Source: Pocillopora damicornis (lineage: Eukaryota). Taken from it: 64,000 bases of DNA. Shown here piece after piece: positions 12,001 to 21,000 of the stretch. How positions within the stretch are numbered: the first letter of the stretch is position 1; the number at the start of each line of letters is the position of its first letter. The stretch is taken from contig NW_020843934.1 in NCBI RefSeq assembly GCF_003704095.1, forward strand, positions 1 through 64,000. Direction: 5' to 3'. The position numbers were made by a program.

Positions 12001-15000
12001 CCAGCAAAACTAAAACCAATATCGAACAGGTTATTTGTGATTTCCTGCTATTTGAGTTCTCGTTTTTTAGCTGTAGTGGGGCCCAGGGTGAGGGAAGCAG
12101 GCCCCTCTTGGACCCGTTGGTTTGTTTACTACTTGTGTGACAGAGAAAATCTTGCAGAAACAGGATCGCATGATACTACAAAGTATTAAATATTTAGAAT
12201 TTAATTTTCTTGAAATATTTCTTAGTTTGCATAGGTCATGGTGCAAAAAAGATCATATGATCTTTAAATCAAAGTTTGGAAGCGGGAGGGCCCCCCCCCC
12301 CCCATAATAACTTATGTTCTACTTATTCGACACATAATCGAAACCCGCACTTAATAGTTGAATGTTGTTGTTGTTGTTTTTTTTTGTTGCGTTAATCTTT
12401 CAGTGGCAGAGGCACACCCGTGGAAGAATGGCTGTAGATTGAGATGTCGTAGTGCATAAAGTGAGGCGTGAGGTGTAAGGTTGGAAAAACTTATCTGCAT
12501 GTACTTCACCTCACGCTTGAAAGAAAAGAACCCCCACGAGTTGACACGCGAGGTCTCAATGTTGCCAGGAAACGACTTACCACAGCCGCTGGCCGAGTAG
12601 AGCTCCGAAGGGTTAAAGAACGTTTTGAAATCAACCACGGCCAAAGGCTTTCAATGAAAATTTTTACTAGTAAATGGAATTTCTTTACGACACTGTTGTC
12701 GTCATTGCCTCCTCTGTTGTAGTGCAAAATTACTATGCAAGGTGCACCTAGAATTTCGTCATCGGTTTAATGTAAATAGAAGCTGATAACTTTTACGAGT
12801 TTATGCTACTTTTCTAAGTAGTGTCATTTCAGGAAATGTTTTCCAGCATCAGCATTGATACATTCCTTGCTTGTTTTGTAAGAACAAATGACCTTGAAGT
12901 GTTTACCAGCTTGTTTACTGACGTTTGGAAGCGCTGGATTTGTCAAAGACTTGTGCGAGCGGAAAGGCCATTCCTCGGCTATGACTACGAGCGGACCATC
13001 TTTCCCGTGTTCGTGCTCGAAACGGACTAAATGCACACCTCTGTAACTCTGTATCGGAGTAGCTTTTCCGTAAAGAATTGCAGACTTGATGCGAGAATCC
13101 CTCCAAGACTCTTTGTCCTTCCTCCAAGTTGAGGATTTCCTTTCCGCGAGATCTTTGCAGGAAGTCAGATGTTTCTGCGACATTAGTTCGCGTTAAAACG
13201 AATATTCAGAAGAAATGGCGTTAATTATAATTTCTGTAGCTGTGATAATTCTCCACTGAAACTCAGCAATAAACTTTACTAATTGAGATAAAGCAGCGAG
13301 TGAATCTCCAAATTTTTCAGCAGATTACATCGGAGGAAAACCCAGACAGCGCAGTATTGTCTCCCGCGGGTTTCTTTTCACTGTGAATTAAGATAACATC
13401 TACTGAAAACGCAACCTTTGCCTTCGCTTTTGATGACAGTTTCCAAGGAAACAAACCCCATAAGACTCCCGTCGGCAAGTGATTTGACAGCAGCTCAGCA
13501 GGTGGCGAATTCTCGTGTTTGGACTCGTATTTATCTACTTGCGTAGGCGGTTGGATTTGTAATTTGCATGCATATCAAAGAGTCCTCAGTTTGCAGAATC
13601 ATTGTTTTAATTAAAGAAATGGAAATATTTCATAAGCGATCTCCTGATCTGCCCTTTTCTTTCAGTTGACCCATAACGGCTGTTCGACTGGTTTATTGGG
13701 ATTTGTTCCGACTTCTAAACCGAAAAAAACACGATCACTTTTCCCTCTGAAAAGTTATTTTGATCACACACGTTTTTGTTTTAGTGATACCAAAATTCTC
13801 TTTCCCTCTTTCCAAGAAGAAAGGTAAGTTTGATAAAATAGATATTTCGAACTGCCTCATAGCTATTAGTACGAAGAATTTCACGGTCGCTGGCGGTGAT
13901 ACAAACTCGTCTGCGATACGATGATTGCCCCAATGAAGACGAAATTAGTTGTGGCTCCCCACTGTACTATCATTTTCGTGCTTAGCCGTTAGTCTGACAA
14001 ACCTGAATTGTGTATTGACCTGGTTTCATTTTCCTATGTTTCTCAGAGCCGTGATGTCTAAAACAAAGTCGAAAACTGTGTTACCGTGGTCGTACCTTGT
14101 TGCTAAGGTAACGAACCCAAAACATTCAATTTGATCCCAGTGTGAAACGATTTTTCTAATTTAATTGCTATATCACAAAGTATCCTATGAAGTACATTGT
14201 GTCGGGCCGGCAGTAACAGCGGAGATTCGGATAATATTATTACAGGCGTGCTTCGTTGATATTCCAATGTGGAGTTTGAAACATTCAATGGAAATTAAAC
14301 TTCTACACCCTAACATCAGTATATATTTTCTCCATAATGTTCTCTATAGATTTCATTTGATACTGACAACGAGAATTTGTTTGAAAACCAAGAGCTTCTT
14401 TTGTTGGAGATCATTTCCTTTATTCTCATGACCTCGATGTTTGCTTTAAGGGTGATACTGATAGGGTAAAATAGTTATTAATCACACTTACGGGTCAAAG
14501 GGTTTAGGAGAGGAAAACGATATTGCAAGGAACGGCGAGTTGCTGAAGACCAATGAATTCTGGTTGAGACGTTTCGGTTTTTGCTTTCTTTCTTTTTTTC
14601 GACAGTAAAGGAAGGTTAATGCGCTGGAAGCTCTTTTAATCCTTGCATCCACTTCATGTAATACTCTGGCGGTTAATCAAAACCATGTTTTTCCATCTGT
14701 TTCGTTTTCCCACCGGCTGAGTGTGCGGGAAAAAAATTGTAGAATTTGAAGCCGCGCCGCAAAACTAAAATTTCTCCCCTAAAAAACTAAAAGAAACAAA
14801 CCAAAAAAAAAAAGATAAAATGGGCTCATTCGTACGAGAACACATTAAAAAAAGACAAACTATCGATAAGGGTTCCACTCAGGACAAGGGTACACTTACT
14901 GTAAAAAAACTTCATGACCAGAACTACACAGTTTTTTTCAGGAATGAGACACTTCATTAGTTACAACAAATCGCTTGTCTGCGCCAATACATAAATTATT

Positions 15001-18000: not shown

Positions 18001-21000
18001 GATCTCCTGTTGACAAAAGATTATTCTCATTATATAAACCGCAACCAATTTCTCAGTGAGTTCACTTACTTTTGGAAATGCCATCGAATTTCTTCATTTC
18101 TTAATGAGTGCATGAAGGATAACGAAATGGATAGAGTTAAAGTGAATTAAATTATTGGTAGAGCCCATCTCCATCGAGTTCGTTGAAAGCTAAGCCAGAT
18201 TGATCTTAGCAGCCAATCAGAGCATAGGTGAATACCACCAAGGAGCTATTGAGATTTTAGGCGAGCAAGGAACCCTCGTACAGCGCGGGAAAACGCGACT
18301 GAGCAAGGTTCCCTGGTTTCAGTTTTGCGTCAGATTGCTGAAGCAAGGAGGAGCGAGTTTTTTAGATCAGTAACAGGAGGGAAATGAAACAATATCAGCA
18401 AATATGCGATCCCAGATTATATTTGACACTCAATGCTGGAAATTGCTTTATGAGTTCGTTGGTTATTTTAGCGCGGTTTACGCTCAGAGGATTAGTTATA
18501 GTAGTCCAAGTCGGTGTGTAATCATACGAGTGATTTACACTTACACATCCAAGACACGTACACTGTTTTATAAGTGCTAAAAAACAACATCGTTCGAGAA
18601 TTTTATCGCCGTTTTGATTAGCCTCATTTATTGGCTCAGATCGTGATCTCTGATCAACAAATTAGCGCACCAATTACTTTTTATGCATGTTGTTATCGAT
18701 CTAATTCCACACCAGTTTTTCGTACGAGGCTGCAAGCTGCTAAACTGCGTCATAATTCAATAATGAATACTAACGCCAGTAATTGAAGAACACGACCTCG
18801 CGCCGCAGAACTCTGATAAAATTCATTAAGGAAACAACGACAAATGATGAGCCAAAGCTAGGCTTCAAACGAGTAAGTTCCGTTAAATTTATTATCTCTC
18901 GTTAAAACGACTCCAAACTACGATAAGAACATTTTGTTTTCGACTCGTGCGCTTTGTTTGTAACTACCGAGAGCATGATTCCAAAACTTTGTTATACCTA
19001 ATCATCAAAGTGTGTTTATTATGTGTTGATTTTATCTGTTTATCTCTCACTTTTAAATCAAGTGCTAATGAGTAGCGAAGATGGATTTTTTCTGTTTGTT
19101 TTCGCCCTAATTTGAATCGTACTCGTTTTCGTTTAACATCCATCCGTCCGCACAAGAATATAGTTTTGACTACAGCTGCAAGTTTCAAGCTACTAAACTC
19201 TCTCGTGAAAGAATTGTTTATAAAAGTTTTCGACATCCTACAATTGCGGTGGACAATTCCCTTTCTCATTAGCTAGTAGAGAGATAAACAATACTCATTA
19301 AAAATCCTTTGATGTAATTTTTTTGTTCAAATGTTTAAAATTGTGAAAAAGCTTTCAACTTGACGCACCATCGAGGATTAATTTTCATTCTGTTAGTGAA
19401 TCACTTTCGTTCAGATTGTATGGAAAGACTCGTGAAGTATAGCCTGGAGGCTTTTTAAGTAATATGGCCAAGCCCTTTTACAAGCCTTTGGACAGGCCAG
19501 AGAGGGAAGAAATTTGGTACTGTTATTACGTTCCTCGTCAAAAGCCAGACTCAAAACCAATTCAGCGTGTTCCTATTTCACAAGTGCCGGACCTGACTAA
19601 CGAGACAACCAGGCTAGTTACTGAAAACAAATATCGAAATGTGGGCAGAGTATTGGAAACTGATTCAAAGTACGTGAAGTTAGCCAAAACTGGCGGGCGA
19701 AAGAACCTGTTATGTTATAAAGAAAACGAACGCGAAAACAGCGGGCCTAAAAGATACGAAGTAGCCGCGTGGTATTACCACGATAGTGACATGGACAAAG
19801 AAAAAGAACTCAGTGAAGAGGAGAGGCATAAGAGATACAACGTTACGTATGGGAAACGGTGTTATAAGGTTTCTCAACTTGAAAAACCCATTGTATATCA
19901 GCGTCCGGATTATATGACGCATTTGGAATCAGAGGAGTTGATCATGTCGCTGGGCGCATCACATCGCATTCCAGATCGCCCGATCTTCGGCTTCGACAGG
20001 TTGTCGTTTTGGAAGCGAGACGAAGAGGAAAAATCGAACAAGCTGCCTCCTTTGGTGGTAAACGAGAATGCGAGGGAAAAATCTGCGCAGCTGGGCTCTC
20101 CCAAAAAGTTTGTACCAACGAAGAAGAAGGTGAAGTTGCCAAAGTCCTCTAAGAAATCTCAGCTGTCCAACAATAGGAAATTGTTCAGTTCAGGTTATGC
20201 TACAGAATGGCATGAAAAGTGGTACGTGAAGGCCTTAAGGAAATGATTATTCGACCGCTAAGACTGGGGCTACGGAACAAACAGACAAAGTCAAAGTTTT
20301 GTTATCATAGCGAGTGACCATTGCAAAGCTAATTAATGAACAGTCAGAGAATTCCAGCGAAGATTCATTCAGAATATTAACCGGAAAGTTAAGTTCTGAG
20401 AAAGATGTTTCGAAAAATTGACTTAAATAAGAAACTTCGTCCCATCACTTTACAAATTTGTAGACTTAAATGAAAGCAGGTCTCTCGCGTTTAGTGTGGG
20501 GTACTTTGTGTTAATTTAATTTCATATCGGGTTTTATATGTTGTATAAATAGTCCATTGTAAAAAGTTTTTGTCGAGCTTAAGAAAAATGTTTAGCTTAC
20601 ATGTACCAGTTCAAGATAAGCAAATATTCCATCAATAAGATTTAAAAAAATATGAACGTCATGCAAAAATCTTAAAAGCCCTGTCTATCAAATGTTACGA
20701 GATTATTTAGATTTCTCTTGAGTTTGAGACATTTCCTTATGGGATAACATTATTTTAACTAGCATGGTATTGTGCAGTTGTACCTAAAAGAACCGAGAAA
20801 CTGGCAAAACGATCACCAGGAGCGAACAAAATAGAACCTCTTTGTCAATATGATAAGTTGTTTCACTAAAGCCACCTAAAAACAAACAAAAAGGAACGAG
20901 AGCGTGCAAAAAATTTTTGATGTTATTGAACATTATCAGGTACAATTGTTTATCGTCGATGCCTCCTGTCGCATTCCAATGATACGAGATCATACAAGTA

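What the first reader, a model, noticed from the sequence alone, without database searches (positions are those of the whole stretch)
12500..20300. Candidate RFX-controlled ciliary/sperm mini-cluster: orphan gene plus two C7orf57 paralogs beside INTS13
Seen: three X-box-like motifs within ~1.6 kb (GTTGCCAGGAAAC 12561, GTTTCCAAGGAAAC 13439, GTTGCTAAGGTAAC 14099) and a weaker one (GTTGCTATAGTG 15247) in the putative first exon of the first C7orf57-like gene. The 13439 and 14099 boxes lie between a minus-strand orphan and two plus-strand C7orf57-like genes. A further plus-strand non-coding exon candidate ends at AAG|GTAAGT 13823. Known: RFX factors bind X-boxes in ciliary genes, vertebrate C7orf57 is expressed in motile-ciliated cells, and INTS13 has been linked to ciliogenesis. 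Inference: a shared bidirectional RFX module co-regulates three uncharacterised small proteins, making the orphan a candidate new cilium/flagellum component.
Basis: partly seen in the sequence, partly recalled or inferred. Interest (0 to 1): 0.7.

Follow-up and report, generated by a model that had tools for sequence, protein, structure and literature searches.

The report
X-box sites beside coral cilia genes
A conserved coral gene neighbourhood holds two relatives of a known cilium protein and a small unnamed gene with two good RFX-type binding motifs in front of it, which makes that gene a reasonable but unproven cilium candidate.

Summary
All four motifs are at the stated coordinates. The genes are real. 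INTS13 exons run on the + strand from 1887 to 11847. A 119-aa gene lies on the minus strand at 12827-13183. Two DUF5524/C7orf57 genes lie on the + strand at 16742-17359 and 19464-20243.

The "orphan" is not an orphan. It has 28 relatives at 49-99% identity and more distant ones, but no Pfam family, no PDB sequence match and no PDB fold match.

Whether the motifs exceed chance depends on the test. Three sites within 2 mismatches of the ideal palindrome inside 1.6 kb arose in 5 of 1000 shuffles. Published degenerate X-box patterns show no enrichment.

Only 13439 and 14099 sit like promoter elements, 256 and 916 bp upstream of the small gene's ATG. The 12561 site lies between two convergent 3' ends. 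The 15247 motif is only a half-site.

The true C7orf57 orthologue (19464-20243) appears to have its own CpG-rich promoter, with no X-box.

Verdict: RFX control of the small gene is plausible. One shared module for all three genes is not shown. Motif conservation and expression could not be tested.

The parts
1887..11847 (+). INTS13 (Pfam Mat89Bb, PF10221) coding exons. 13 ORF pieces are collinear with profile positions 5 to 685 of 689. The last piece, 11668-11847, ends at a stop codon.
11989..12190 (+). AATAAA (11989) and ATTAAA (12185): candidate polyA signals of INTS13
12561..12573 (.). X-box-like GTTGCC A GGAAAC, 1 mismatch to the ideal palindrome. It lies between the convergent 3' ends of INTS13 and the small gene.
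12766..12771 (-). ATTAAA on the minus strand, about 55 nt after the small gene's stop codon: candidate polyA signal
12824..13183 (-).
13439..13452 (.). Perfect 14-bp palindrome GTTTCC AA GGAAAC, X-box-like, 256 bp upstream of the small gene's ATG
13822..13829 (+). AG|GTAAGT donor-like site (exon end 13823); one of 6 AGGTRAGT on the + strand of the window
14080..14112 (.). GTTACC half-site (14080) plus the full X-box GTTGCT AA GGTAAC (14099-14112). This is the only site in the finding that meets GTNRCC N0-3 RGYAAC (on the minus strand). It is 916 bp upstream of the small gene's ATG.
15077..15139 (.). Two forkhead-core GTAAACA words (15077 minus strand, 15133 plus strand) ahead of the half-site
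15247..15258 (+).
15348..15355 (+). AG|GTGAGT donor-like site inside a CpG-rich stretch (CpG observed/expected 1.36-1.59 in the 400-bp windows starting 15201 and 15401, which run to 15800): candidate 5' exon and promoter of the first C7orf57-like gene
16742..17362 (+). Short C7orf57 paralogue: 206 aa, one coding exon, three [PR]ISQ[IV] repeats, stop at 17360-17362
18401..19200 (+). CpG-rich stretch (observed/expected 1.44-1.60) with CGA|GTAAGT at 18873/18874: candidate own promoter and 5' exon of the second gene
19464..20246 (+). C7orf57 orthologue: 260 aa, one coding exon, DUF5524 at 65 bits, DH-like repeats AWYYH and DYMTH, stop at 20244-20246

Best explanation
This is a conserved hexacoral gene neighbourhood. 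INTS13 (+) ends tail to tail with a small 119-aa gene (-) of an unnamed but conserved family. That gene is transcribed away from two tandem C7orf57/DUF5524 genes (+, +).

The two palindromes at 13439 and 14099 are most likely real RFX-dimer sites in the upstream region of the small gene. They would switch it on in ciliated or flagellated cells. They may also serve the short C7orf57 paralogue, which is transcribed in the opposite direction.

The C7orf57 orthologue at 19464 probably runs from its own promoter near 18.4-18.9 kb. The 12561 motif and the 15247 half-site are probably not part of any module.

Shown: the motifs, the gene models, family membership, conservation of the proteins, and probable conserved linkage. 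Inferred: RFX binding, the transcription start sites, which gene the boxes serve, and any cilium role of the small gene.
For: - Motif quality. 14099 meets the classical X-box GTNRCC N0-3 RGYAAC (consensus as quoted in PMC10530576, passage). 13439 is a perfect 14-bp palindrome. Palindromic X-boxes are over-represented in validated Drosophila RFX targets (PMC2375033, passage).
- Clustering. Three sites with 2 or fewer mismatches within 1.6 kb occurred in 5 of 1000 shuffles.
- Position. 13439 is 256 bp upstream of the ATG. C. elegans ciliary genes often carry X-boxes 100-250 bp upstream of the coding sequence (PMC2873420, passage).
- Neighbours are ciliary by family. Pfam DUF5524 scores 65.2 bits against a cut-off of 35.6 for 19464-20243. 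Homologues are named C7orf57 homolog or C7orf57-like in two corals. The two paralogue families align by hhalign at 96.8% probability. Vertebrate C7orf57 is ciliary and belongs to the multiciliated-cell programme, overlapping an RFX2 study's list.
- The small gene is real and under constraint: 28 of 28 candidates at E<=0.01, 27 invariant columns in 24 sequences.
- Probable conserved linkage. Hits to the three queries share identical longest-contig lengths: 711681 and 314443 for all three genes; 1866160, 1470521 and 1554782 for the small gene plus one paralogue. In Desmophyllum pertusum the two paralogues carry adjacent locus tags OS493_011580 and OS493_011581.
Against: - Published degenerate X-box patterns and the GTTRCY half-site show no excess in the window or in the cluster. 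Laurencon et al. state that an X-box upstream of an ATG is not predictive without cross-species conservation (PMC2375033, passage). That conservation could not be tested.
- The total count of good sites is only marginally high (6 against 2.85; 72 of 1000 shuffles). The finding was picked from a scan of many windows.
- 13439 and 12561 each break the classical consensus at one position per affected half-site.
- 13439 can also be read as TTCC..GGAA, an ETS- or STAT-like word (my own recollection). The right half of 14099 overlaps a donor-like AAG|GTAAC.
- No transcription start site is known. If the small gene has an upstream 5' exon, the boxes would be intronic (the only minus-strand GTRAGT between 13184 and 14500 is at 14491).
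- Nothing links the small protein itself to cilia. It has no Pfam family, no PDB sequence match and no PDB fold match, although the PDB holds many axoneme structures.
Confidence: 0.45

Rival explanations
1. The motifs are chance matches or sites of other factors. Each gene has its own promoter, and the three genes are neighbours only by descent (tandem duplication of C7orf57 and retained synteny).
For: - There is no enrichment with any of three published consensus patterns or with the half-site.
- One of the three clustered motifs lies between two 3' ends.
- 15247 is only a half-site.
- CpG observed/expected peaks at 15.2-15.8 kb and 18.4-19.2 kb, with donor-like sites at 15348 and 18873/18874, suggest separate promoters for the two paralogues.
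- No site with 3 or fewer mismatches and no RYAAAYA forkhead word lies in the putative promoter of the orthologue.
Against: - Three high-quality palindromes within 1.6 kb arose in only 5 of 1000 shuffles.
- They lie next to genes of a family known to be ciliary and listed with RFX2-linked genes in Xenopus.
- One site is a perfect palindrome at a typical distance from an ATG.
Confidence: 0.35
2. One reading: one bidirectional RFX module at 13.4-14.1 kb co-regulates all three genes. The first C7orf57-like gene would start at a non-coding exon that ends at 13823.
For: - AG|GTAAGT at 13822 is one of only 6 such words on the + strand of the window.
- The boxes lie between divergent genes.
- The probable linkage of all three genes on two other assemblies' contigs is compatible with a shared control region.
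Against: - The orthologue's ATG is 5.4-6.0 kb from the boxes, beyond the other paralogue, and has its own CpG-rich stretch.
- A second strong donor at 15348, in a CpG-rich stretch with two GTAAACA words, is at least as good a first exon for the short paralogue.
- No transcript evidence of any kind could be reached.
Confidence: 0.15

Closest known systems
X-box / RFX (DAF-19, dRFX, RFX2/3) control of ciliary genes
   Same: Inverted GTTRCY-type half-sites with a 1-2 bp spacer sit upstream of an ATG at a distance comparable to C. elegans targets, next to genes of a ciliary family.
   Different: Neither binding, cross-species conservation nor expression has been shown. Two of the three dimeric sites depart from the classical consensus. 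One lies at gene 3' ends.
C7orf57 / FCAP33 (Pfam DUF5524, PF17662), a ciliary microtubule-associated protein
   Same: The gene at 19464-20243 matches DUF5524 above the curated cut-off. It keeps two DH-like repeats (xWYYH, DYMTH) of the kind reported as needed for microtubule association in the human protein.
   Different: The repeats do not fit the published strict pattern D-[W/Y]-[Y/M]-[I/V/Y]-H in the window's protein. The second gene (16742-17359) is a short, divergent paralogue. It shares only a block of about 52 residues, has three [PR]ISQ[IV] repeats and no DH repeat. No relative is in the PDB by sequence.
INTS13 (Asunder / Mat89Bb), Integrator subunit
   Same: 13 ORF pieces are collinear with profile positions 5-685 of 689 of PF10221.
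   Different: It is only a neighbour. It is convergent with the small gene, so it shares no promoter with the cluster. Its link to a human ciliopathy (PMC9559116, title and start of abstract in the search listing only) concerns Integrator function, not this locus.

Membership tests
X-box (dimeric RFX site) | Sequence fits GTNRCC N0-3 RGYAAC | tested here: inconclusive
   14099 fits, on the minus strand. 12561 and 13439 do not, although they fit GYTNYY N1-3 RRNRAC. 15247 fits neither.
X-box (dimeric RFX site) | More frequent here than chance | tested here: inconclusive
   The cluster of 3 was reached in 5 of 1000 shuffles under the 2-mismatch test. There is no excess under the published degenerate patterns.
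X-box (dimeric RFX site) | Lies in the promoter or upstream region of the regulated gene | tested here: inconclusive
   13439 is 256 bp and 14099 is 916 bp upstream of the small gene's ATG. 12561 lies between two 3' ends. Transcription start sites are unknown.
X-box (dimeric RFX site) | Conserved in sequence and position in orthologous loci | not testable with these tools
X-box (dimeric RFX site) | Bound by RFX, and the gene depends on RFX | not testable with these tools
   This needs ChIP, DAP-seq, EMSA or a knock-down.
C7orf57 / DUF5524 (PF17662) | Pfam match above the gathering score | tested here: met
   19464-20243 scores 65.2 bits against a cut-off of 35.6. 28 of 29 listed... see next row for the other gene; 29 of 29 hits to this query carry a precomputed PF17662 label.
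C7orf57 / DUF5524 (PF17662) | Membership of the short paralogue (16742-17359) | tested here: inconclusive
   The 159-aa form scored 29.4 bits, below the 35.6 cut-off. 24 of the 30 hits to the 206-aa query carry a precomputed PF17662 label. hhalign of A3 against A4 gives 96.8% probability over 52 columns.
C7orf57 / DUF5524 (PF17662) | DH repeats D-[W/Y]-[Y/M]-[I/V/Y]-H, reported as required for microtubule association | tested here: inconclusive
   The strict pattern is found in 1 of 12 sequences of A4 and 0 of 12 of A3. Loose xWYYH and DYMTH forms occur at conserved positions in A4, and none in A3. The pattern is taken from bioRxiv 10.64898/2026.10.27.762278, section 11.
INTS13 / Mat89Bb (PF10221) | Collinear matches along the family profile | tested here: met
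   13 pieces cover profile positions 5-685 of 689, 8 of them above the 25-bit cut-off on their own.
Any named family, for the small gene | Match to Pfam, to PDB sequences or to PDB folds | tested here: not met
   Pfam: 0 families for the window protein, and only chance-level hits for 9 relatives. PDB profile searches with A1 and A2: 0 hits at E<=10. Foldseek against the PDB: 0 hits at E<=0.001 for two models.

The most novel reading that the evidence does not exclude
The 119-aa protein would found a new, conserved family of cilium or flagellum proteins: an N-terminal helix packed on a four-stranded sheet, with short forms of about 100 aa and long forms of 305-375 aa elsewhere. In hexacorals it would be held next to two C7orf57 microtubule-binding paralogues because all of them are driven by one RFX-bound divergent control region.
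Probability: 0.15. Interest if true: 0.55.

Novelty: new member of a known kind. Interest (0 to 1): 0.3.

Why it matters
If the boxes are functional, this locus gives a concrete, testable case of RFX control of ciliary genes in a cnidarian. It would also nominate an unnamed, conserved small protein family as a cilium or sperm-flagellum component. It further shows that corals keep a second, short C7orf57 paralogue. That paralogue has lost the DH repeats reported as needed for microtubule association and has gained three [PR]ISQ[IV] repeats, which may help to dissect how C7orf57/FCAP33 works. If the boxes are not functional, this is an ordinary syntenic block.

Tried and rejected
- Complex prediction of the short paralogue with the small protein gave no verdict. 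It counts neither for nor against binding.
- ESM Atlas look-ups of the small protein and of a long relative (P0067) gave nothing usable.
- PDB profile searches with A1 and A2 gave 0 hits. Foldseek against the PDB on two models (mean pLDDT 65 and 69) gave 0 hits at E<=0.001.
- I considered that the long relatives of the small protein (P0066-P0068, with LPxL-type motifs) might be fused to a C7orf57-like part. hhalign rejected this, with probabilities of 0.1% and 0.9%.
- The A4 profile against the PDB gave only weak villin-headpiece-like matches (E 0.28 and 0.39). I treat these as chance. A3 gave none.
- Rfam found no family in 11500-21500.
- The repeat search of 12000-21000 found only short two- or three-copy families, so the boxes are not in a repeated element within that region.
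- The strict pattern GTTNCY N1-2 RGNAAC (5 against 0.52 expected) is set aside as post hoc.
- Paper reading closed. The supplements of the Xenopus RFX2 paper (PMC3889689), which may list C7orf57 as a direct target, were not seen. Files 13-17 of the PMC5245798 supplements were not searched either.
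Full report
**Observation.** GTTGCCAGGAAAC is at 12561, GTTTCCAAGGAAAC at 13439, GTTGCTAAGGTAAC at 14099 and GTTGCTATAGTG at 15247. AAG|GTAAGT has its exon end at 13823. The first three are dimeric, X-box-like inverted repeats. The fourth is a lone GTTGCT half-site: its right half does not resemble RGYAAC, and it is absent from the list of sites with 3 or fewer mismatches to the ideal palindrome.

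**Genes.** I scanned 132 of the window's 147 stop-to-stop ORFs of at least 70 aa against Pfam. The 15 left out were one ORF spanning the N run, the three gene ORFs already scanned, and ORFs overlapping large ORFs. I then scanned 101 of the 122 plus-strand ORFs of at least 28 aa between 1500 and 12800, dropping the 21 that lie before 3650.
- Together these gave 13 pieces matching Mat89Bb/INTS13 (PF10221), collinear from profile position 5 to 685 of 689, between 1887 and 11847. The last piece ends at a stop codon.
- The exons were searched piece by piece.
- The "orphan" is the minus-strand ORF 12827-13183 (119 aa, ATG at 13183).
- The two C7orf57-like genes are single coding exons at 16742-17359 (206 aa) and 19464-20243 (260 aa).
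- The start of the first is set by homologues of 200-213 aa that cover 100% of the 206-aa query.
- INTS13 and the small gene are convergent. INTS13 has AATAAA at 11989 and ATTAAA at 12185. The small gene has ATTAAA about 55 nt after its stop codon.
Named relatives come from stony corals: Oculina patagonica, Montipora capricornis and Desmophyllum pertusum.

**The small gene.** It is not an orphan.
- All 28 candidates scored E<=0.01, at 49-99% identity and mostly 111-131 aa.
- An alignment of the window protein with 23 of those 28 hits has 27 invariant columns. I left out one near-identical hit and four partial or redundant ones. The conserved core reads RIKSAILHGK...LVRFEHE...VVIAEE...QAGK.F.VIC.Y.T.
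- A profile search of 1.84 billion representatives found 14 proteins at E<=0.001. They include forms of about 100 aa and three proteins of 305-375 aa that carry the domain at their N-terminus.
- None has a Pfam family. PDB profile searches found nothing at E<=10.
- Two AlphaFold2 models (mean pLDDT 65.4 and 69.0, core blocks 82-89) agree on a helix (22-38) followed by four strands. Foldseek against the PDB gave 0 matches at E<=0.001 for either model.
- So the fold is unassigned, and nothing in the protein itself points to cilia.

**The C7orf57 genes.**
- The 260-aa protein matches DUF5524 at 65.2 bits against a cut-off of 35.6. It has 29 relatives, all carrying PF17662, three of them with names given by a source.
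- It keeps two conserved DH-like repeats (AWYYH, DYMTH). These are of the kind reported as required for microtubule association of human C7orf57, although the strict published pattern is met in only 1 of 12 aligned sequences.
- The 206-aa protein is a separate, well-conserved paralogue: 30 relatives and 76% mean column identity in 12 sequences.
- It shares only the PISQV...DS.F..L.K.GG.K.LL.Y block with the orthologue (hhalign 96.8%, 52 columns). It has three [PR]ISQ[IV] repeats and no DH repeat.

**Linkage.** Hits to the three queries report identical longest-contig lengths.
- 711681 and 314443 appear for all three genes.
- 1866160 appears for the small gene and the short paralogue.
- 1470521 and 1554782 appear for the small gene and the orthologue.
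- 908495 appears for the two paralogues.
- In Desmophyllum pertusum the two paralogues carry adjacent locus tags.

Equal lengths are an inference of a shared contig, not proof. They say nothing about order or orientation.

**Are the motifs more than chance?** The answer depends on stringency.
- A test fixed beforehand (2 or fewer mismatches to GTTGCC N1-2 GGCAAC) finds 6 sites in 64 kb against 2.85 expected; 72 of 1000 dinucleotide shuffles reach 6. Three of the six lie within 1.55 kb, which 5 of 1000 shuffles reach.
- The classical pattern GTNRCC N0-3 RGYAAC gives 2 against 0.40 expected (15 of 300 shuffles reach 2), and only 14099 belongs to the finding.
- The degenerate patterns used in Drosophila, the C. 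elegans-type pattern and the monomer site GTTRCY show no excess.
- Laurencon et al. (passages read) state that a degenerate X-box upstream of an ATG is not predictive and that cross-species conservation is what discriminates. They also report that palindromic boxes are over-represented in true targets.
- A strict pattern that I wrote after seeing the sites (5 against 0.52) is post hoc and carries no weight.

**Position.**
- 13439 and 14099 lie 256 and 916 bp upstream of the small gene's ATG. C. elegans ciliary genes often carry X-boxes 100-250 bp upstream of the coding sequence (PMC2873420, passage).
- 12561 lies between the polyA signals of two convergent genes.
- The ATGs of the paralogues are 2.6-3.3 kb and 5.4-6.0 kb from the two boxes.
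- CpG observed/expected, 0.80 for the window, peaks at 1.36-1.59 over 15201-15800 and at 1.44-1.60 over 18401-19200.
- The first peak holds AG|GTGAGT at 15348, two GTAAACA forkhead cores at 15077 and 15133, and the 15247 half-site. The second holds CGA|GTAAGT at 18873/18874.
- I read these peaks as the paralogues' own promoters. This is inference from composition in 400-bp windows and is weak.
- Between 18000 and 19464 there is no site with 3 or fewer mismatches, and between 18400 and 18900 there is no RYAAAYA word.

**What is known.**
- C7orf57/FCAP33 localises to primary cilia (PMC12583597, passages).
- It is listed among proteins seen in motile-ciliated cells (bioRxiv 10.1101/2025.03.18.643967, one passage).
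- It is described as a paclitaxel-sensitive ciliary microtubule-associated protein whose overexpression lengthens cilia (bioRxiv 10.64898/2026.10.27.762278, abstract, sections 10-11 and passages).
- In Xenopus it is in the core multiciliated-cell lists (12.8-fold at the 9-hour point). It is also in the sheet of genes shared with the Chung, Kwon et al. RFX2 study (PMC5245798, supplements S7, S8, S11 and captions).
- The RFX monomer site GTTRCY and the DNA-contacting residues are conserved from fungi to animals (PMC10530576, one passage).
- My one full-text search for X-box, RFX and Nematostella together (6 papers) turned up no paper listing X-boxes in cnidarian promoters. That is a narrow search, not proof of absence.

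**Mechanism.** My best reading, at 0.45, is as follows.
- The 13439 and 14099 palindromes are genuine RFX-dimer sites in the upstream region of the small gene. They make it part of the cilium or flagellum programme.
- They may also serve the divergently transcribed short paralogue.
- The orthologue is run from its own promoter.
- Chance or other-factor motifs with purely historical synteny get 0.35.

**What could not be done.**
- No coral genome, transcript, chromatin or single-cell data can be reached with these tools. The two tests that would decide the matter, motif conservation and expression, stay open.
- Paper reading closed, before the supplements of the RFX2 paper could be checked.

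Noticed in passing
window 1346-1445: A run of 100 N (assembly gap or mask) just upstream of the first INTS13 exon. It was left untouched.
   Followed up: no
window 49195-51717 and 52063-53385 (+): Two very long open frames (841 and 441 aa) with no Pfam match. The first is serine-rich and looks disordered. They may be giant exons of the gene whose RhoGEF domain exons lie at 58332-58658 and 59736-59975.
   Followed up: partly
window 39156, 42417, 53855: Three other sites within 2 mismatches of the ideal X-box palindrome: GTTGCCATGTCGAC, GTTGGCAGGGCAAG and GTTTCCATGGCAAT. Their gene context was not examined.
   Followed up: no
window 14056-14112 (+): A short ATG-initiated frame (MSKTKSKTVLPWSYLVAK) ends at a donor-like AAG|GTAAC that overlaps the right half of the 14099 X-box. 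This could be an unrecognised first exon or chance.
   Followed up: no
window 12123-16805: 6 of the window's 22 GTAAACA forkhead cores fall in this 4.7-kb stretch. The window total is 22 against 14.2 expected, reached by 2 of 100 shuffles. Two of the six lie inside the small gene's coding sequence.
   Followed up: partly
proteins P0066, P0067, P0068 and P0062: The small gene's domain also occurs at the N-terminus of 305-375-aa proteins, two of which are 33% identical to each other over their whole length. A 34-residue stretch matches inside a 5388-aa protein at E 1.7e-10. Their organisms are unknown.
   Followed up: partly
window 19464-20243, residues about 143-195: The profile of the C7orf57 orthologue gives weak matches (E 0.28 and 0.39) to villin-headpiece domains of ABLIM proteins around the FG..F..WKR.ELEK motif. 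They are not significant.
   Followed up: no
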